Source: Octopus vulgaris
Lineage: Eukaryota
Assembly (NCBI GenBank): GCA_951406725.2
Contig: OX597819.1
Location: forward strand, 128,402,001-128,466,000
Length of the DNA stretch: 64,000 bases
Direction of reading: 5' to 3'
The position numbers were made by a program, and so were the translations under genes. Below the pieces are notes generated by a model. The model saw only the letters and a program-made list of their open reading frames with translations, was not told where the DNA came from and did not search any database. Positions 2 through 61,035 of the stretch are shown here, in pieces. Within the stretch, counting starts at the first letter, position 1. Each line of letters begins with the position of its first letter.

Positions 2-740
2 TTGAAAAACATCGAAAAAGGCAATACGATAGACAATTACAGGCTGATATCTTGCTTCCCATTTATGTGGAATAGTCGCAGAGTCAATGTACGGACATCT
101 GGTAAAAATGGAGTCCTGTCACATGAACAGAAAGGTTGCAAGCGTAAGTGCAGAGGTACCAAGGATCAACTCCTGATAGACAAAACTGTACGTAGATATT
201 GCAAGAGGAGGAAAACTAAGTTAGCTATGTCATGGATCCATTATCGTAAGGCATACGATATGATCCCACATTCTTGGATTATTTGGTATTTGCATCGAAT
301 GTTGAGCGATTGCTTGGAAAAAGTATGACGAAGTGGAGGACGGAACTGACAGCATATGGAAGAAGTTTAGGGACAATAGAAATCAGGAGCGGCGTTTCTC
401 AAGGGGAATGCCTGCCCCCACTGATCTCTGTACCGTGCATGATACCACTAACACTGGTTCTGAGGAAAGCAAACACTGGGTGTGTATTCAGGATCCGCCA
501 ACAAAAAGTCAAACCACTTGTTATTCATGGATGTCCTCAAACTTTATAGTAAAGATGAATCATAAGTCAGTTCCCTCGTTGATACGGTGTATACTTTCAG
601 TGCTGATATCAGAATGGAGTTCGGACTGAAAAAGTGTGATGCGTTACTCTTGAAGAGAGGCAAAATTAAATGTATGGACGAGCTAGCGATACTGTCGGGG
701 GGGGGGGGTTATGGAGCAAATAGAAGAGAGGGGCTATACA
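2..740 (+). mobile_element. Decayed non-LTR retrotransposon RT fragment, R4/Dong-like clade
   Basis: Frameshifted translation gives EQKGCKRKCRGTKDQLLIDK, W(I)HYRKAYDMIPHSWI, IRSGVSQGECLPPL and a HLLFMD-like motif, typical of RLE-type (R4/Dong) RT domains; stops and frameshifts present. Confidence 0.8.
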
Positions 741-9525: not shown

Positions 9526-10138
9526 TTAGTAAATGTAGCCTTCCTCTTCGATCAACGTTTTATAAGAAAGGAATTTACTTGTTATTTCTCGCAAAGTCGA
9601 GCGACAAAGAATGATAAAAACTAATGTGAAATCGAAAAAATTCATAACAAAATTTATGCTTAATATTTTTAGACAGAGCTTTCTCCCCAAGTAATTGTCT
9701 CGATAAACCCTTTCATTTAAATTCAAATAATACGATTTTTCTCATAAAAACGCTAAAAATATTTTGATTTCTTTAAATTATCCCCTTTTTCCGTACAACT
9801 CCTTTTGTAACTATTATTTTGTGACAAGGTTTTCGCCATAAGTTTTATCTCATACAGCTCTTCCATTTGAATACAACTATTGTGTAGTTTTCTATCTTAA
9901 TAACTGAGATATTTTGATTCAAAATCAGTTTGGGGTTTGCTAGCCATTTTTGTTTTCGTCATTTTTTCGTAACTAAGACTTTTCACTAAAAGATTATTCG
10001 TAATAAACACATTCTTTAAAGCCCAATTAATCTATACTTTTCTTATAAAATAACTGAGATTTTCTGATTTAGAGTCAGTTTTTCGCATTTCTCTCTCATT
10101 TTTGACCACACATATTTTGACCTAACTTTCAATTTTCA

Positions 10139-11233
10139 ATGAATCAAATTTCAATTATTTTATCTCAAAAAGTAGCTGTCATAAGAATGTCAAATCTATC
10201 GGACTTTCAAAGAGGTCAAATTGTTGGTGCTCATATGGCAGGTGCTAGCATAATGAAAACAACCGAAATGTTTTGTTTATCATTAAGTCCTGTCTCGAAA
10301 GTAATGACAGCCTTTGAGAGAGAAGGAAAAATCTCGTTGTTGAAACAAAACTCCGGAAGAAAACCAAAACTTTCAGATAGGGGCCGTCAGACTCTTACGC
10401 CAATTGTTAGAAAGGATCACAAAAGTACAGCTCCCAAAATTACTGCAGAGCTTAATGACCAGTTCGAGAACCCGGATTTCACGGGAGGGCTGAAATCAGA
10501 AAACCACTCCTTTCAAAAACAAACATTGCAAAGCGTTTAGAGTTGAGTAAAAACCTACAGAATTGGTTCCTAGAGTAGTGGAAGAATGTTATTTTCTCGG
10601 ACGAGTCATCCTTTACCGTATTTCCGGCCACCGGCCGAGTATACGTAGGTAGACAGCCAAAGGAAGCATTTGACCCAGACTGCCTTCTTCCAATTCTTAA
10701 ACATGGAGACGGATCTGTGATAATCTGGTGGGGGGCTATATCTTGGAAATCCGCCAGCTCAATGGTTTCCCTTCATAGCAGAATTAATAGTCAAGACTAT
10801 TTAAGCATTTTATCTGATCAGATTCATCCTATGCTTTCGGAACTGTTTCCGGTGTGAAACGCAATCTTTCAGGATGATAATGCACCAATTCACACAGCTA
10901 ATGTTGTTACTGAATGGCACGAGGAACATTCTAGTGAAGTTGAACATCTGATCTGGCCACCATAGTCCCCAGATCTCAATAATATTGAACATTTATGGTG
11001 CATTTTAGAAAAATAAGTAAGGAGTTGATATCCTCCACCATCATCACTACAGGAACTGGAGACTGTTTTAGCTGAAGAATGCACAAAAATTCCTTTGGAA
11101 ACAATTCAGATTTTGTACGAATCCATACCTCGTAGAATTCGAGATGTAATTACTTCCAAAGGCGGTCCTACTCCATATTAAAATGAATTTGTTTGAAATT
11201 TTAAGGTGTTTCCATTATTTTGTCCAACCACTG
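10139..11233 (+). mobile_element. Tc1-family (DD34E) transposon, decayed, right TIR present
   Basis: LSDFQRGQIVG HTH, NSGRKPKLS linker, FSDES (~10594), FQDDNAPIH (~10867), WPP*SPDLNNIEHLW (~10953); terminal ...TTATTTTGTCCAACCACTG followed by TA; stops and frameshifts. Confidence 0.92.
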
Positions 11234-21577: not shown

Positions 21578-22359
21578 GTATTTGTATGCTCGTACACGCA
21601 CACACACGCACACACACACAAAGTATGTTTGTACCTATGAATATATGAATATATGTGGGTGTAAGGGGTCTTAATCCAGAAACAAGAATTTGGTGTCGGC
21701 ATTCAGCAAGCAGGGAGGAGGCGGCGTCAGTTTCTCGCGCCACCAGTAGCGAACGGGGATTTTTTTGCAATCCAATCTTCTTTCAAAATTTTGCGACTGA
21801 ACTTTTTGCAAAAAGATACATGGGAATCAAAAGAACGGAACCAGTAATTGATATAGCAGACATTGCGATATTTCCGTCATTGCACTTGGAATAGGGAACG
21901 ACAGTGAAAAGAGAGAAAAAGGGACAGGCTGACAGGCAGACACACAGACAGACACAGCGCAAAGAAAATGAATGGAAGATCAAAACAAGAGATGAGAACT
22001 GAAAAAAAATAACTTCTAACAATGTCTACACAGCGGATGAACGATTTCGACGCTGAAAGTGCGTCTATGTGGTCAATCTCCATGCTAGTAATAGCAGCAA
22101 AATTTTCCTCAAATCATATTTTGAATTTTTCTATAAGGAAGAGACACATTGGACAATGTAACACAGTTCGCACCTAAAAAGTTAGGGTTTTTAGTCACTC
22201 GTGGTTGGCTTTTATTTAAGGGCTATTCGATTGGTGCTGTCTGGGGCTACTTAACAATGTGATGGTGAATATTCAGAAGAATAGTCGTATGTAACCCAGC
22301 ACAATACAGTGGTATTCTTCATACATTATATATATATATATATATATATATCATATATA

Positions 22360-22526
22360 GCCGGAGTAAACACATAAATGTGAAACAAGGTGGAAGAAAA
22401 GTACTCAAATGCCAGAGGTATTATTTAAAAGCAGCAGAAATTTAACAAAACTGTCCGACGAACGGGAACGTGAAACTCCGAGTAACAGGTTTTGTAAAAT
22501 TTCTGCTGCTTTTAAATAAAGTATAT

Positions 22527-22530
<4 letters not shown>
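22360..22530 (+). ncRNA. Penelope-like mini module: hammerhead ribozyme motif (22451-22488) at the apex of a ~34-bp hairpin
   Basis: CTGT-CCGACGA-ACG-GGAA-CGT-GAAA-CT-CCG-AG-TA-ACAG; stem I extends through 22421-22454 pairing with 22485-22519; embedded in (TA)n on both sides. Confidence 0.75.
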
Positions 22531-22585
<55 letters not shown>

Positions 22586-22595
22586 GCAACAATTA

Positions 22596-22655
22596 TAGTA
22601 GTTAGGATTACTGGCTTTCACCCCAGCGGCCCGGGTTCGATTCCCGGTATGGGAA
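22596..22655 (+). pseudogene. 5'-truncated tRNA-Glu(UUC) pseudogene
   Basis: TAGTAGTTAGGATTACTGGCTTTCACCCCAGCGGCCCGGGTTCGATTCCCGGTATGGGAA matches metazoan tRNA-Glu(TTC) from the D-loop to the 3' acceptor strand; 5' acceptor strand absent; 11-bp direct repeats TATGCAACAAT at 22583-22593 and 22664-22674. Confidence 0.85.
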
Positions 22656-22794
22656 AGTATTACTATGCAACAATAATATATGTAAACAAACTTTATAGAA
22701 CAGCCATTTTATAGTGGCAAAACATCTTTCATTTTGTTTTCAGAAGCGTCGAATATGTATTGTATTGTACAGACGCGGTTATAGCCATGAAAAC

Positions 22795-22904
22795 AGCAGA
22801 AAGACTGGGTATCATTACACTTACAAGACGGAAAAAATTGTTGATGAACAGCCACGGAAACTTTTTTCCGTCTTATAAGAGTAATAATACACAATCTTTC
22901 TGCT
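22795..22904. repeat. 43-bp imperfect inverted repeat with a degenerate hammerhead-like loop
   Basis: 22795-22837 pairs with 22862-22904 with 5 mismatches; loop contains TTGATGA (22841-47) and GAAAC (22857-61). Confidence 0.8.
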
Positions 22905-23214
22905 CTGCATTCGAAATATTACCTTCTTTCCTGTACAAGATATATATATATATATATATATATGTAATTATTATTTGAAGGAATATAAATCCAAACTTAC
23001 AGGGAAAAAAATTCAATTTAGAAATACTAAATCAAATTTCACACAATATAATATATATATATATATAAAAAATTAGAAAAAACCACCTTTTATCAATTCA
23101 AAATGAACAATTAAATTACACCATCTAGAAAATTACATATAACAGAAATATTAAAATTAAAATAACAATAAAATATCAATGATTAAGTAAATTGCAAAAG
23201 AAAATAATTTTAAA

Positions 23215-27206: not shown

Positions 27207-27531
27207 TATATCCACCAATGCAGTGTTGAGCACTCATTTTCATCGTTCGACATTTACGTATATATACACACATATAACATACACATATATCTGCATATAC
27301 ATACATATATATATACATTAATTGTTATCGCCATATTAATATGGCAGTCTTATAGATATAAGACTAAAGCTGTCGCTGATTAGCTCCATGAGGCCATCGC
27401 CTTAAGCTAGCTATTTGACACACAAACTGTGTCCATTATAACCTTATATATATGTGTATGTTATATGTGTGTATATATACGTAAATGTCGAACGATGAAA
27501 ATGAGTGCTCAACACTGCATTGGTGGATATA
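27207..27531. repeat. Perfect 84-bp inverted repeat enclosing a palindrome-rich spacer
   Basis: 27207-27290 is the exact reverse complement of 27448-27531; spacer holds GCCATATTAATATGGC (27330-45), AGTCTTATA-GA-TATAAGACT (27346-65) and GACACA..TGTGTC (~27417-33). Confidence 0.9.
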
Positions 27532-33079: not shown

Positions 33080-33630
33080 GTATTTCGTCTGCCGTTACGT
33101 TCTGAGTTCAAATTCCGCCGAGGTCGACTTTGCCTTTCATTCTTTCGGGGTCGATAAATTAAGTGCCAGTTACGCACTGGGGTCGATATGATCGACTTAA
33201 TCTGTTTGTCTCTCCTTGTTTGTCCCCTCTGTGTTTAGCCCCTTGTGGGTAGTAAAGAATTAGGTATTTCGTCTGCCGCTACGTTCTGAGTTCAAATTCC
33301 GCCGATGTCGACTTTACCTTTCATCCTTTCGGGGTTTATAAAATAAGTACCAGTTACGCACTGGGGTCGATATGATCGACTTAATCCGTTTGTCTCTCCT
33401 TGTTTGTCCTCTCTGTGTTTAGCCCCTTGTGGGTAGTAATGAAATAGGTATTTCGTCTGCCACTACGTTCTGAGTTCAAATTCCGCCGACGTCGACTTTG
33501 CCTTTCATCCTTTCGGGGTCGATAAATTAAGTACCAGTTACGCACTAGAGTCTATATAATCGACTTAATCTGTTTGTCTGTCCTTGTTTGTCCCCTCTGT
33601 GTTTAGCCCCTTGTGGGTAGTAAAGAAATA
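33080..33630 (+). repeat. Tandem trimer of head-less 184-bp SINE units
   Basis: TATTTCGTCTGCC recurs at 33081, 33265 and 33449 (period 184); flanked by ATGTATGTGTGTGTAT at 33063-33078 and 33631-33646. Confidence 0.9.
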
Positions 33631-40190: not shown

Positions 40191-40456
40191 AGATGAACAG
40201 AAAATTTCCTTCTCTCTTTCTCTCTCTCTCTCCCCTCCTCCTCCTCCTTCTTTGTGAAGGCTCGGTAGGTAGTAGCAGAAATGAAGAAATAGTGTAACGT
40301 TTTGAACCATGAAGAATTTGTACCGGATTTTTGCAGAGTTTGAATTTTTTTTTAATCATTTGTTTGCAATTGTCTGATAATACAGACATAGACTTGCCCA
40401 AATGCATCAATAAATTAACATTGATATTTTTTCACCGTTGTTACAATCATCTGAAA

Positions 40457-41455
40457 TGGAACTCTCAAAGCGCGATATTCGAGCAATTTTGCTATTCAAC
40501 TTCAAAAAAGGATGTAAAGCAGCTGAAACGAAACGTTTGGTGAGGAAATGGTTTAAACGAATTCACAGTGGAGACCTGAACCTTGAAGATCGTGAGCGTA
40601 GTGGACGCCCATCTGTCATCGATGACGGTCAATTAAAGACCGTCATTAAGAAAGATCCACGTAAAACCACTTGTGAGCTGGCAAAAGAATTTCAAGTTAG
40701 CCAGAAAACTGCCAGCAACCATTTGCATGCGATCGGAAAATCAAGAAAGCTCGACAAATGGGTACCACACGATTTGAATGAAAATCAGAAAATGTGCAGG
40801 TATGAAATTTGCTCGATGAAAAGTGGATTCTGTACAATAATAGAAAACGTTCTTTGCAGTGATTGAACCAAAATGAAGTACCGAAAACCTTCTCTAAACC
40901 CGAGCTCTTCAAAAAGAAAATTATGGTGACTGTTTGGTGGTGTACCATTGGACTCACCCACTATAACTTCTTAAAACCCGGTAAAACTATTACTGCAGAA
41001 ACATATTACCATGAATTTGCCAAAATGAACGAAAAACTGCTACTTCTCCGTCGCAGACTGGTCGGCAGAAGAGGGTCAATCATTCTTCATGACAATGGTC
41101 GACCACACGTTTCACTAATGACGCTCCAGATTTTGAAGGAACTTAGCTATAAAGTTCTTCCCCACCCAGCTTATTCCCCAGATCTTTCTCTTACCGACTA
41201 CCACTTTTTCAAGCACCTTGATGGTTTCCTGTGAGAGGAGCTCAAAAATCAAACCGATGCTGAAAGTGCGTTGAAAGAGTTCATCAGCTCCAGAACTCCA
41301 GATTTTTATGCCACCAAAGTAAACAAAATCGTAACTCGTTAGCAAAAATATGTTGATTGTAATGGTGCTTACTTTGACGAATAAAATGTTCGCTCTGTTG
41401 AAATATGTTGTGATGAATTTCATGTTTCAAAACGTTGCTTACTTTTTACTCAGCC

Positions 41456-44987: not shown

Positions 44988-45160
44988 CGCCAGCGATTTT
45001 TTTCCTGTCTTCCCTTCTCGGGATCTTTCCTTCTCCTATGTTTCCGACGAAGAGCTCCGCTCGAAACGTTAAACCCTCCTTCTTCCCTTCTTTCCTGAGC
45101 GTCCAATAATACTTTATTTGTTCCACGTCCTCGCGTTGTTGTGTTTTCTTGTTTGGATTA

Positions 45161-45166
<6 letters not shown>
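44988..45166 (+). ncRNA. Penelope-like mini module with minimal hammerhead motif (45040-45074)
   Basis: GTTT-CCGACGA-A-GAGC-TCC-GCTC-GAAA-CG-TT-AAAC; followed by TTCCTGAGCGT as in the 39772 family; ends in (TA)n; interrupts the hAT remnant. Confidence 0.65.
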
Positions 45167-45225
<59 letters not shown>

Positions 45226-45801
45226 CCAGTGATTTCAGCTAGTGCTGACCATCCCCTTAACATTAATCGCAAATGAGAGAAGTTTCTCGACGCTGGATCG
45301 AATCCGCTCATATCTGAGAAGCACAATGGCCCAAGAACGGCTGTCTTCACTGGCTCGTATTTCCATCGAGAAAAGCATTTTGAACGACTTGGACAACAAG
45401 AAGGAGCTGCATGACAGAATATTACACGAGTTCGCCATGAAACCAAAACGACTGGAGTTCGTGTATAAATGAAGTAATTTTTATATTAAAACTATATTTT
45501 TGTTGCATTCTTTCGTTAGAAGCAGAAAACTTACTTACTGTTGAGTTATCAATGCACATATAAGTTTGCGGTGTGCATTACGTCTCTTACCTTCTTGATA
45601 TATGTCTTATACGAAATCCGGGATGAGCCCGAGTGACGCTGATGACCTGGAGTCGCCTCCGCCGAGGTCGACTTTGCCTTTCATCCTTTCGGGGTCGATA
45701 AATTAAGTACCAGTTGCGCACTGGGGTCGATGTAATCGACTTGATCCCTTTGTCTGTCCTTGTTTGTCCTCTCTGTGTTTAGCCCCTTGTGGGTAGTAAA
45801 G

Positions 45802-53689: not shown

Positions 53690-53920
53690 GAAGGCGTATG
53701 GCTCAGTGGTTAGAGCGTCGAGCTTACGATCGTGAGGTTGTGATCACTTAGATCTTTAGCGCTTTCTCCCATTCTAGTGGGGTTTTCAAATCTCCACTAG
53801 AATGGGAGAAAGCGCTAATAATCTAAGTGATATGATATATATATAAAAAATGTAATATATAAATAAATATCTGTAAATATAAACCATCCGATCTTCTGAG
53901 TACCTCATTTCTTCTAATAT
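53690..53920 (+). other. Truncated tRNA-like SINE head joined to a 38-bp hairpin module
   Basis: GGCGTATGGCTCAGTGGTTAGAGCGTCGAGCTTACGATCGTGAGGTTGTGA stops before the B box; 53743-53780 pairs with 53794-53831; short tail then (TA)n. Confidence 0.7.
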
Positions 53921-55278: not shown

Positions 55279-56200
55279 TATAATAATAATAATGAAATTA
55301 CTGTATACAGTGCTCAGGTGCACCACAACTTGTCAGAAAGTGCATATAAAGTACATGCAGTAATGTAGAAATGTCTGGAAAGTGAACATGCTTGTGTGTG
55401 TATGGAGGGAGAAAATCAAGTGTAGTGTTGGCGAATCTCAGGAAGCATGGAAGTCTTGAAGGATGCAATGCTCCGACAACTAACAACCGATGCCGGCAGT
55501 TTGTTCCACGCTTCAGCAACTCTCAGCGTGAAAAAATGTTTCCTGAAGTCATGGGAGCTGTGCTGTTTTCTTACTTTGTAAATATGTCCACGGGTGTTAG
55601 ATGGGTGGAGTTTGAAGAGGTGCTCAGTGTTATTGTTTGTGCGATGGTTGATAATTTTATGGGTGTCTGCCAGGTCAGCTGCCAGACGTCGGAGTTTCAA
55701 TGTGTCCATGCCCAGGGAAGTAAGGCGTTCAGGATATGGCAAATGCCTGATGGAGGGTATTCTTTTGGTTGCACGTCGCTGAACAGCTTCCAGACGATTG
55801 ATGTCCTGGGCAAGATAGGGGTTCCAGACCGGTGATGCAAATTCCAGGTGAGGTCTTACCATAGCTATATAAAGCCGCAGATAGATAGCCGGAGAGCGGC
55901 TCACAAAGGATTTGGTGAGTGATGCCAAGACACCCTCAGCCTTCTTGACAATTTTGGCGATGTGTTTTGTCCAACGCAAATCACTGTCGACAATAACACC
56001 CAGGTCACGTTCACTTGAAGATTTTTTGAGACTAGTGTTGTGGAGGGAGTAGGTGGACGCTGGGTTTCTCCTCCCAAAATGCATGGTGGTACATTTGTCC
56101 ACAGCCAGCTTGAGTTGCCAGTCCATGATCCACTGCTGCATTGTGTCCAGGTCTGCTTGCAATAGAGATCCATAGTGTACAGGATTTGACCTCTTTATTT
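55279..56200 (-). mobile_element. 5'-truncated CR1-group LINE with uninterrupted ORF2 C-terminus
   Basis: 248-aa open frame: DLDTMQQW..DWQLKLAVDKC, ERDLGV, LYIAMVRPHLEFASPVWNP, LEAVQRRATK, FFTLRVAEAWNKLP; short 3'UTR and (ATT)n tail. Confidence 0.92.
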
Positions 56201-57307: not shown

Positions 57308-57711
57308 AGGATGTAGTTTATTCGATATGTTGATGGATTGACATGTATAGTTGTTCTAGGAGTCATGTCTATCCAAAACACGACTCGTGTTTTAAATAGA
57401 CATAACACCTAGAACAACTTCTCATAAAACATTTGTAAGAACACAATACCCATGTAATTCTTAAGTCTACCTTTTTCTTTATTAAGTTCTTATTTTTTTC
57501 TTATTGTACTACAGATAAGTACTCTTTGACAACTCTGATTCTTAAAATGAACTTATTGTCATTCTGTGCGAAACGATCTTTTAGCGAATTGAATAGATAT
57601 TTTATCCCATATTAACATCTAATTTACGCCATTTTACACCGGTATCAACGTTAGAGATCTTTTGGAAACTACTCCAATTAAAGGACGAATCCTCATTCAA
57701 CCCTTTTTATG

Positions 57712-59771: not shown

Positions 59772-60395
59772 GATTGATTTGAGCTCAGTTTCAAGGGATA
59801 GGTTGTAGGTGACGGTAGAGCCAAGATAGGTAAACTTCTCCACCTTCTGTAGTCTGTGGTCTCCGGAGCCTTGTTACTTGCAAGGGAGTCAATATCCTTG
59901 GTGAGCTCTGCTATAGATGGCACACTGTCAAGTTCACACATGACTGGCAAGATCTTGACACCCTCGATTGCAGCCTCAGCTACCGTGGTCTCTCGTGAGT
60001 AGAGATCCTGGTAGTACTCCATCCATCTATCCATTTGCTTGCTTTGGTCCTTGATGAGATCCCCAGTAGTTGATTTCAGAGGGGCTGACTTGGTTGCGGA
60101 TGGACTGAGGGCCTTCTTCAAACCGGCATACATCCCACGGGTGTCGCCACTGTCAGCAGCTGGCTGGATACTCTGACAGATTTCCTGCCAATACCTATTT
60201 GCACAGCGTCTGGCAGTCAGTTGGGTTTTATTCCTTGCCTTTCTGAGTTCTTCGAGTGACTTTATAGAAGAATCACTCTTGTATTACATCAGAGCTGCAC
60301 GCTTTGTTTCGATAACTGTTTCCAGCTCTGAGAGCCCAGCACTGAACAAAATCTGGGTTTTGCCTTTCTCTCATGCCGAAAGTATCTATTGATGT
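59772..60395 (-). mobile_element. RTE (BovB-like) LINE internal fragment
   Basis: TARRCANRYWQ, MYAGLKKAL.P..K.APLKS.TG..I.D...QM.RW.EYY.DLYS, KAP; then EKFTYLGSTVT..LSLE.EL after an internal deletion. Confidence 0.85.
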
Positions 60396-60404
60396 CGTAT
60401 ACAA

Positions 60405-61035
60405 AGCTTTCCTGACAGTAGACTTGAGCATTGATTGTTGCACTAGGTGGTAACAATATAAAGTGAATTACGCCTTTGCAATCGCACCAGATAGAGTAGA
60501 ACCTTTTTCCCATGAAGTTCCCTTCTCGGTTGTGGTCGAGCATTTTCCCTTTTACCAAGCCACTGTTTACGACGTTTAACATTTCGATAGAAAATCCATT
60601 TTTCGTCACAAGTCTATCGATAAAGGGTGAAATGAGTTTGCGAGAATGGAGAGAAGAGCAGATGTCAACTCGGTATTTGCGGTTGCTTTCGGACAATACC
60701 TGAGGCACCTATTTTCCAAGTTTAGGAATCTTTCCATGTTATTGAAGATGACGATGAACTGTTGTATGGTTTGAAGTAAGCTTTATTGCCAATTCTTCAA
60801 CTGATAATGACGGATTTTCTTCAAGTAATGCCTCATGGAGCTTATCATCAAACTCAACTGGACATCCTATTCGATCTTCATCTTCAATTTTGCAAACGAT
60901 CTCCTGCAAGTTCTTTCATTCAAGCACTTTCCCATAAACTGAGTGTATGTTTCGAGTCACTTCGGCTGCAAAGTTACCTTTATTGTACTCACAGAATTAT
61001 ATGTGCCTTAAATGCTCCTTGGATACTTCCATGTT
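60405..61035 (-). mobile_element. mariner transposase 5' half, decayed
   Basis: Minus translation includes ED..R.G, WVP-like PQVLSE..RKYRVDICSSL, LVT.E.W, SIWCDCKGVIHFILLPPSATINAQVYCQ. Confidence 0.8.

What the first reader, a model, noticed from the sequence alone, without database searches (positions are those of the whole stretch)
22421..22519. Best hammerhead candidate: complete core at the tip of a 34-bp hairpin
Seen: CTGT/ACAG stem I, CCGACGA core, ACG-GGAA-CGT stem II closed by a GNRA tetraloop, GAAA, ACT-CCG-AGT stem III and a GUA cleavage triplet (cut predicted after 22484). Stem I extends to ~34 bp with one mismatch and one bulge. Inference: the long stem I could let this copy fold and cleave as a monomer. 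It may have arisen from the inverted pLTR junction typical of Penelope elements.
Basis: partly seen in the sequence, partly recalled or inferred. Interest (0 to 1): 0.72.

Follow-up and report, generated by a model that had tools for sequence, protein, structure and literature searches.

The report
Head-to-head Penelope stub with hammerhead
The hammerhead-ribozyme motif and the 33-base-pair hairpin are really there, but the hairpin is two head-to-head end pieces of a very abundant repeat, likely a Penelope-like jumping gene, and the long stem is predicted not to help this likely pair-dependent ribozyme cut itself, so this is an ordinary example of a known kind.

Summary
Observation confirmed: a type I hammerhead motif (core 22455-22461, GUA triplet, cut predicted after 22484) sits at the tip of a 33-bp hairpin with one mismatch and one bulge; 0 of 100 shuffles give it. 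Reads from four runs of related organisms show a high-copy family whose own stem I is only about 11-12 bp. The long stem comes from an inverted, 5'-truncated second copy (22360-22451) that carries a ~65-nt tail the other copy lacks; both ends abut (TA)n. The monomer idea does not hold: helix III, a palindrome with a free centre base, is the weak helix (+2.1 kcal/mol alone, -7.8 as a duplex), and lengthening stem I leaves the predicted hammerhead share unchanged at 0.07%. The core is the known slower U4C variant, here family-wide. Cleavage is untested. One lead remains: the inverted junction lies in the ribozyme's own stem I, and a second, older hairpin 275 bases away has a hammerhead-like tip too.

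The parts
22327..22359 (.). Left (TA)n tract, likely the insertion target
   Evidence: family copies abut (TA)n before 22361 in 65 contigs of X1 and 47 of X3 (table 7)
22360..22420 (-). Tail of the inverted copy (about 65 nt with the missing bases), present at this end only
   Evidence: beyond 22528 the family goes on with the reverse complement of this stretch (114 RNA reads; 25, 17 and 20 contigs in X4, X1, X3); opposite-strand joint 22399-22528 in X24, X4, X3
22421..22451 (-). Inverted, 5'-truncated copy of the element's 3' end = left hairpin arm; about 12 family bases are missing just left of it (after 22420); 22443-22451 is shared with the sense copy
   Evidence: pairs with 22488-22519; table 4 (12 bases put in behind 22420, 3 RNA reads) and table 7
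22443..22526 (+). Sense copy of the element's 3' end, beginning at the family's own 5' arm of stem I and ending at the short end into (TA)n
   Evidence: 21 of the 24 longest listed pieces begin at 22441-22450; loose (TA)n behind 22526 in 56 RNA reads and 27, 25, 35 contigs
22443..22497 (+). Family-sized hammerhead with its native stem I of about 11-12 bp (22443-22454 / 22485-22497)
   Evidence: family match begins at 22443/22444; 22496 is T in 72-96%, which pairs with A22444
22455..22461 (+). Hammerhead core CCGACGA (positions 3-9), U4C variant
   Evidence: position 4 is T in only 1.9-7.3% across four runs
22462..22471 (+). Stem II, 3 bp, GGAA loop; A10.1-U11.1 instead of the usual G-C; predicted -1.0 kcal/mol
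22475..22483 (+). Helix III region, a 9-nt palindrome with a free centre base (22479); predicted dimer interface
   Evidence: +2.1 kcal/mol as hairpin, -7.8 as self-duplex; 22479 is A in 30-49%, T in 26-51%; no change listed at 22475-22478 or 22480-22482 at the 5% threshold
22484..22485 (+). Predicted cleavage site after the GUA triplet; cleavage untested
   Evidence: by motif; no pile-up of read ends in related copies (table 6)
22527..22585 (.). Right (TA)n tract

Best explanation
This is a stub of about 170 bases made of two head-to-head 3' end pieces of a high-copy repeat lying between two (TA)n tracts, likely left by one insertion of a Penelope-like retroelement, and its hammerhead is likely a passenger that would cut well only as a pair and is predicted to gain nothing from the long stem. 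Shown: the motif, the hairpin, the high copy number, the head-to-head layout, the one-sided tail, the (TA)n flanks, and a family stem I of only 11-12 bp. Inferred: (1) the element is Penelope-like, from layout and ribozyme type, with no ORF linked; (2) the insertion arose when the element's enzyme primed reverse transcription on both strands of a nicked (TA)n target, once at the long (tail) start and once at the short start, and the two cDNAs joined through the 9-nt match 22443-22451 that the ribozyme's own stem I arms provide (about 45% for this route, 35% for fold-back self-priming at the same stem followed by trimming or a loop flip, 20% other); (3) in the source element the ribozyme works as a double hammerhead through the palindromic helix III, perhaps with protein help; (4) this copy, if transcribed on the + strand, folds into a locked hairpin that cuts slowly or not at all at cellular Mg2+.
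For: Family: 2188, 3442 and 4577 contigs laid in three DNA-type runs and 397 reads in an RNA run. Hairpin is not the family norm: loose non-hairpin sequence before 22443/22444 in all four runs (46 reads; 48, 43, 66 contigs); RNA depth 16-17 at 22441-22443 against 177 at 22456; 3 of the 24 longest listed pieces span both arms. Two 3' ends, as for a tail: (TA)n behind 22526 and onward family sequence behind 22528, both in all four runs. Same orientation recurs with other breakpoints: 8 distinct listed joints link the inverted tail (22381-22399) straight to 22444-22461 (tables 5 and 5c; 15 of 25 joints shown). Published layout: inverted 5'-truncated copy, tail at one end, (TA)n bias (PMC8557442); inverted pLTR overlapping the direct one by 15 bp, palindromes at the junction, mostly head-to-head (PMC3846280); both strands cut and extended, two start sites that define the tail, AT-rich targets, protein-assisted hammerhead (PMC11167929). 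Dimer: palindromic helix III as in other animal Penelope hammerheads, and the one tested single minimal motif did not cleave (PMC4209133); double hammerhead -87.0 vs -82.0 kcal/mol for two monomers, cost per core 0.6-1.1 vs 3.4-3.5. A second motif with the same CCGA core and a 4-nt palindrome lies about 100 nt before a (TA)n tract at 45044.
Against: No reverse transcriptase or GIY-YIG frame is linked to it: Pfam found none near it (80 of 134 nearby frames sent, part of the rest already, 150 frames of the window), and no genome is held. The tail is about 65 nt against 30-40 in print. Stem II lacks the G10.1-C11.1 pair and the extra base after position 9 of the published minimal consensus. The window's own species is not among the runs (best share 0.22), so family figures come from relatives; contig depths are not copy numbers. 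The joints have short sides (23-31 nt) at 80% likeness, where the tool warns of false joints, and my stretch cannot show junctions further upstream, so no enrichment at stem I is shown. A 3-bp helix III can form in a monomer, and energy models handle three-way junctions poorly.
Confidence: 0.8

Rival explanations
1. One reading: the long stem I turns this copy into a ribozyme that folds and cleaves as a monomer, and may have been kept for that.
For: All core positions but U4 are canonical; helix III can form 3 bp; 23 of 23 outer pairs are intact; full hairpins exist in two relatives (X1 record 1, X3 records 9 and 10). A closed stem does hold the two core strands together.
Against: Predicted hammerhead share 7.3e-4 with either stem length, helix III pairing 0.03; U4C considerably lowers activity in vitro (PMC3088659 citing Ambros and Flores 1998); A-U at 10.1-11.1; mismatch and bulge lie next to the core; the family already has an 11-12-bp stem I; intact arms are what a fairly young insertion gives without selection.
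Confidence: 0.07
2. Same stub, other route: one antisense strand folded back at the stem I palindrome and primed its own copy; the one-sided tail came from endonuclease trimming, or the loop was flipped later between the arms.
For: Self-priming is the published reading of palindromes at inverted Penelope junctions (PMC3846280); endonuclease resolution is a published reading of the tail (PMC8557442); the junction sits in the native palindrome.
Against: Each strand of this locus holds in its second half something its first half lacks (the core on the top strand, the tail on the bottom strand), so plain self-priming cannot give it without a second step; tail-to-hammerhead joints without arms cannot come from fold-back at stem I, unless they are later deletions or false joints.
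Confidence: 0.3
3. The hairpin is itself a small mobile unit (MITE-like or retrozyme-like) or a small-RNA precursor that spreads or acts as a hairpin.
For: Strong, nearly perfect 99-nt hairpin; three listed contigs of relatives span both arms; a second hairpin lies 275 nt away.
Against: Most copies are not hairpins; no tandem array as retrozymes have (no second copy in the window; definition in 10.64898/2026.07.22.740005); sequence of the same element runs on beyond the left arm, so the arms are not termini; no Rfam microRNA at gathering score.
Confidence: 0.05
4. The hammerhead motif is a chance match in the loop of an ordinary inverted repeat.
For: No Rfam hammerhead model scores it; non-canonical position 4; minimum-energy fold differs from the hammerhead.
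Against: 0 of 100 shuffles; across the family the two positions that vary freely are position 7 and the centre of loop 3, the two a double hammerhead leaves free; an unrelated repeat at 45044 has the same core and placement.
Confidence: 0.03

Closest known systems
Type I hammerheads with a small palindromic helix III in the pseudo-LTRs of animal Penelope-like elements (Cervera and De la Pena 2014, PMC4209133; Aedes repeat-type dimer in Perreault et al. 2011, PMC3088659, Fig. S8 legend)
   Same: Type I topology, short palindromic helix III predicted to pair between molecules, many dispersed single copies from truncated elements, several families in one genome.
   Different: Core CCGA (U4C) as the family majority; stem II only 3 bp with A10.1-U11.1 and no extra base after position 9; native stem I of 11-12 bp, longer than the 2-6 bp described.
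Typical insertion unit of endonuclease-bearing Penelope-like elements: inverted 5'-truncated copy, overlap or palindrome at the junction, one-sided tail (Arkhipova et al. 2013, PMC3846280; Craig et al. 2021, PMC8557442; Frangieh et al. 2024, PMC11167929)
   Same: Head-to-head copies that overlap at the junction, tail on one copy only, two family 3' ends, (TA)n target, no clear target-site duplication.
   Different: Whole insertion is only about 170 bp; tail about 65 nt rather than 30-40; the junction palindrome is the ribozyme's own stem I; no ORF linked here.
Natural U4C hammerhead variant of a viroid (Ambros and Flores 1998, seen only as cited in PMC3088659)
   Same: C at core position 4.
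   Different: There a variant with much lower in vitro activity that still allows infection; here the majority state of a high-copy animal repeat, and also of a second repeat in the window.
Animal non-LTR retrozymes (10.64898/2026.07.22.740005)
   Same: Non-coding, type I hammerhead, proposed derivatives of Penelope pseudo-LTRs.
   Different: Retrozymes are head-to-tail tandem arrays; this is a single head-to-head pair.

Membership tests
Type I hammerhead ribozyme | Three helices around C3 U4 G5 A6 N7 G8 A9, G12 A13 A14, A15.1-U16.1, H17 | tested here: met
   All present except U4, which is C; U4C is a known natural variant with lower activity
Type I hammerhead ribozyme | Canonical U at position 4 | tested here: not met
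   C in the window and in 93-98% across four runs
Type I hammerhead ribozyme | Match to a curated hammerhead covariance model | tested here: not met
   None in Rfam 15 at gathering score or E <= 10; the textbook-like minimal motif at 45044 is missed too, so the library is a weak test for this type
Type I hammerhead ribozyme | Mg2+-dependent self-cleavage after H17 | not testable with these tools
   No assay; no read-end pile-up in related copies, a weak test
Penelope-type dimer hammerhead | Short, palindromic helix III / loop 3 | tested here: met
   9-nt palindrome with free centre; +2.1 vs -7.8 kcal/mol
Penelope-type dimer hammerhead | G10.1-C11.1 pair and an extra base between positions 9 and 10.1 (published minimal consensus) | tested here: not met
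   A10.1-U11.1, no extra base; the 45044 motif has both
Endonuclease-bearing Penelope-like element | ORF with Penelope-type reverse transcriptase and GIY-YIG endonuclease | tested here: inconclusive
   None at this stub; upstream family sequence could not be followed beyond 30 nt; no genome held; no copy in metagenome, viral or prokaryote contigs
Endonuclease-bearing Penelope-like element | Inverted 5'-truncated copy joined head to head, with overlap or palindrome at the junction | tested here: met
Endonuclease-bearing Penelope-like element | Optional tail at one end (30-40 bp in print) | tested here: met
   One-sided tail and two family ends (22526, and the end equivalent to 22360); length about 65 nt, outside the printed range
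Endonuclease-bearing Penelope-like element | Hammerhead near the 3' end, within the pseudo-LTR | tested here: met
   Predicted cut 42 nt before the short end and about 110 nt before the long end; pseudo-LTR bounds not mapped
Non-LTR retrozyme | Head-to-tail tandem units each with a hammerhead | tested here: not met
   Single head-to-head pair; no second copy in the window; tandem copies elsewhere in the genome not testable
MITE | Inverted repeats at the element's termini with a target-site duplication | tested here: not met
   Element sequence extends 61 nt beyond the left arm, and most family copies lack the inverted arm

The most novel reading that the evidence does not exclude
The hammerhead of these elements acts at the integration step: self-cleavage makes the RNA 5' end at which one cDNA runs off, and the ribozyme's long native stem I gives the match through which the two oppositely primed cDNAs anneal. 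Hammerhead-tipped hairpins would then be a regular product of Penelope insertion and a genomic record of ribozyme cleavage, which would give the Penelope hammerhead, whose role is stated in print to be unclear, a testable job. For: the inverted copy stops within about 4-13 nt of the cut site; a second, older head-to-head pair at 22752-22940 also turns at a hammerhead-like tip (pattern in 63 of 200,000 shuffles of its tip). Against: any self-complementary stretch would attract junctions without cleavage; other joints have other breakpoints; cleavage was not needed for insertion in vitro in the anole element (PMC11167929).
Probability: 0.15. Interest if true: 0.55.

Novelty: new member of a known kind. 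Interest (0 to 1): 0.2.

Why it matters
As it most likely stands it matters little: animal genomes hold thousands of such Penelope stubs with small hammerheads. Two details have modest value. The family-wide CCGA core in two unrelated repeats would be missed by searches that demand CUGANGA (the core string used in PMC8557442), so hammerheads in this lineage may be undercounted. And if inverted junctions prove to cluster at the cleavage site across many copies, this would be a cheap, genome-wide handle on what the Penelope hammerhead is for.

Tried and rejected
No whole genome is held, so copies could not be counted or followed upstream. Exact-pattern scans found nothing in metagenome contigs, viral contigs or prokaryote genomes, as expected for an animal repeat. 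Rfam: no family at gathering score; at E <= 10 only microsatellite-driven microRNA hits and a weak tRNA hit nearby, no hammerhead. ARAGORN: no tRNA. Pfam on 150 window frames (239 passed my filter) and 80 of 134 nearby short frames: only LINE-like RT, Tc1/mariner and hAT fragments far from the finding. No RNA holder listed for the stretch: no evidence on expression of this locus. No read-end pile-up at the cut site in run X24 (247 reads at 22484, 242 at 22485; about 6% of the run read, strand not resolvable, another species): not taken as evidence against cleavage. RNA editing: A>G and T>C changes are higher in RNA than in DNA contigs, but so are C>T and G>A (9 A>G, 6 T>C, 8 C>T, 7 G>A), so rejected as unproven. 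Five short motifs of the two repeats were not in the one supplementary file of PMC8557442 held as text; in what I saw it is a metadata table, so sequence files may be missing. Lunse et al. 2017 on Penelope hammerhead variants is not held; it may already list U4C cores, so I do not claim the variant is new. Searches for the junction idea in print: 'Penelope' + 'twin priming' (3 listings) and 'Penelope-like, hammerhead, inverted, template switch, palindrom' (11 listings); none looked on point from the listings; most subscription papers are not covered. 'hammerhead + CCGA + uridine turn' gave 0; 'hammerhead + U4C' gave 1. A shared origin of the two hairpins was considered because both arms hold AGCAGAAA; alignment score was low (27), so they are treated as different families.

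Full report
Observation. The hairpin 22421-22519 has 33 pairs, one A.A mismatch and one bulged G and folds far better than shuffles (z -7.96, 0 of 200). A strict descriptor finds this motif once in the window and in 0 of 100 shuffles. Rfam has no matching model, but it also misses the minimal motif at 45044.

Setting. The window is AT-rich animal-type DNA full of microsatellites and dispersed repeats, with only transposon fragments among 150 frames scanned. From recall, not from any call, its commonest repeats look like octopus SINEs; the organisms are coded. Penelope-like elements are reported as abundant and partly recent in Octopus vulgaris (PMC13282606, passages; 'hammerhead' occurs 0 times in its main text). 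No genome is held. The run search found no run with half of the words; the best share was 0.22, so all family data come from relatives.

What the family shows. I laid three contig sets (X4, X1, X3) and one raw RNA run (X24) on 22352-22535 at 80% likeness. 2188, 3442 and 4577 contigs and 397 reads were laid: a high-copy repeat. (a) Upstream of 22443/22444 most copies do not continue into the left arm but into other family sequence (46 reads; 48, 43, 66 contigs). RNA depth is 16-17 at 22441-22443 and 177 at 22456. Of the 24 longest pieces listed (10,464 not shown), 21 begin at 22441-22450 and 3 span both arms. So the native stem I is about 11-12 bp, and the 33-bp stem belongs to a minority of copies; I cannot tell whether the three full hairpins are orthologues of this locus or separate insertions. 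(b) Downstream of 22528 the family goes on with the reverse complement of 22394-22420 (114 reads; 25, 17, 20 contigs), so 22360-22451 is an inverted copy of the element's own 3' end, lacking about 12 bases after 22420. (c) The family has two 3' ends, both meeting (TA)n: a short one at 22526 (56 reads; 27, 25, 35 contigs) and a long one about 65 nt further (equivalent to 22360; 65 and 47 contigs in X1, X3). This locus has one of each. (d) Eight distinct listed joints link the inverted tail straight to 22444-22461 (15 of 25 joints shown; sides 23-31 nt, so some may be false).

What it is. An inverted 5'-truncated copy, a tail at one end only and a (TA)n target are the published layout of endonuclease-bearing Penelope-like insertions (PMC8557442, passages). 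Overlap of the inverted and direct repeats, palindromes at the junction and head-to-head order are described in PMC3846280 (passages). Two reverse-transcription starts that define the tail, cutting and extension of both target strands, and AT-rich targets were shown in vitro for an anole element (PMC11167929, parts 1-2 of 4). Small hammerheads with palindromic helix III are standard in such elements (PMC4209133, parts 1-2 of 4). Against a firm filing: no ORF is linked, and the tail is longer than the printed 30-40 bp. I file it as a likely Penelope-like stub; the ORF test is open, not failed.

How the hairpin arose (inferred). The sense copy begins at its own 5' arm of stem I; the inverted copy ends at the complement of the 3' arm. 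The right arm has the extra G (22489), which is the majority base in X1 and X3 (G changed in only 28% and 36%), while the left arm lacks the matching second C; so the crossover lies in the 9-nt match 22443-22451. The top strand holds the core only in its second half and the bottom strand holds the tail only in its second half, so one strand folding back on itself cannot make this in a single step. Two cDNAs primed on opposite strands at the two start sites and annealed through stem I make it directly; I put that at about 45%, and fold-back plus trimming or a later loop flip at about 35%.

Does the long stem help the ribozyme? In the energy model, no. The hammerhead fold costs 4.45 kcal/mol in the full hairpin and 4.46 in the family-sized piece (share 7.3e-4 in both); the equality partly follows from the model, which treats a closed stem's interior as independent. 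Helix III is +2.1 kcal/mol as a hairpin and -7.8 as a duplex of two molecules. The double hammerhead is 5 kcal/mol below two monomers, and the cost per core falls from 3.4-3.5 to 0.6-1.1. The family pattern fits: the centre of loop 3 is A, T or C, while the bases beside it, unpaired in a monomer but paired in a dimer, show no change at the 5% threshold. In a double hammerhead stem I pairs between molecules, so a 33-bp stem formed during transcription would more likely trap the weak monomer (inference). A single minimal Schistosoma motif gave no detectable cleavage, dimers little; the anole ribozyme needed its protein; a review states the dimer view (PMC6765202, passages). U4C lowers activity considerably in vitro (PMC3088659, passages). 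Position 4 is T in only 1.9-7.3%, so C is the family state, not decay of this copy. Depth-weighted DNA shows the core kept (G5 changed 1.4-3.1%, G12 0.1-0.4%, U16.1 0.1-0.3%; contigs under-report rare variants), while RNA reads show decayed copies (G5 46 of 177, G12 40 of 257, U16.1 34 of 258, position 17 to G 26 of 247): selection in the source elements, drift after insertion. No read ends pile up at the cut site, a weak test.

Neighbours. A second hairpin at 22795-22904 (z -7.88) is part of an older head-to-head pair, 22752-22940 (67 of 91 aligned columns alike), and its tip reads like a decayed core; such a pattern fell in 63 of 200,000 shuffles of the tip and 56 of 63,971 windows (pattern chosen after seeing it). 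Two of the five non-microsatellite hairpins in the window have such tips. A third motif with the same CCGA core lies at 45044, about 100 nt before (TA)n.

Novelty. A new member of a known kind. Earlier notes of this scan report the same kind of head-to-head hammerhead stubs in other animals; they are unchecked leads, not support, though one pointed me to PMC3846280. The open, more interesting reading is that ribozyme cleavage and stem I set the inverted junction; I did not find it in two searches (listings only), and I give it 15%, because microhomology alone explains the junction and cleavage was not needed for insertion in vitro. Lunse et al. 2017 could not be read and may bear on the U4C point. 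Interest 0.2.

Noticed in passing
window 22752-22940: Older head-to-head pair from another repeat; hairpin 22795-22904 (z -7.88) with a decayed hammerhead-like tip at 22841-22861; both copies end alike next to AT-rich tracts.
   Followed up: partly
window 45040-45166: Minimal hammerhead motif with the same CCGA core, extra base after position 9, 4-bp G-C stem II and a 4-nt palindrome for helix III, about 100 nt before a (TA)n tract; likely the 3' end of another Penelope-like family.
   Followed up: partly
window 22594-22655: 5'-truncated tRNA-like piece (Rfam tRNA 17.8 bits, below threshold; TTC anticodon, so likely Glu) flanked by an 11-bp direct repeat at 22583-22593 and 22664-22674: likely a retroposed tRNA copy, lying between the two hairpins.
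   Followed up: no
window 22441-22514, run X24: RNA reads of the family show 9 A>G and 6 T>C sites that are rare in DNA contigs of the same species label, but also 8 C>T and 7 G>A sites; A-to-I editing is possible, not shown.
   Followed up: partly
window 53743-53831 and 57349-57419: Two more near-perfect hairpins (89 and 71 nt) without a hammerhead core.
   Followed up: no
window 27207-27258 and 27480-27531: Perfect 52-bp inverted repeat 221 nt apart, MITE-like.
   Followed up: no
window 33080-33630 and at least eight other places: Abundant ~184-240-bp dispersed repeat, in places in head-to-tail tandem, tRNA-like at its start; likely a SINE.
   Followed up: no
window 2-325, 55419-56198, 40414-41231, 60292-60708, 10121-10537, 45233-45469: Broken LINE-like reverse transcriptase, Tc1/mariner and hAT transposase fragments; none next to the finding.
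   Followed up: no
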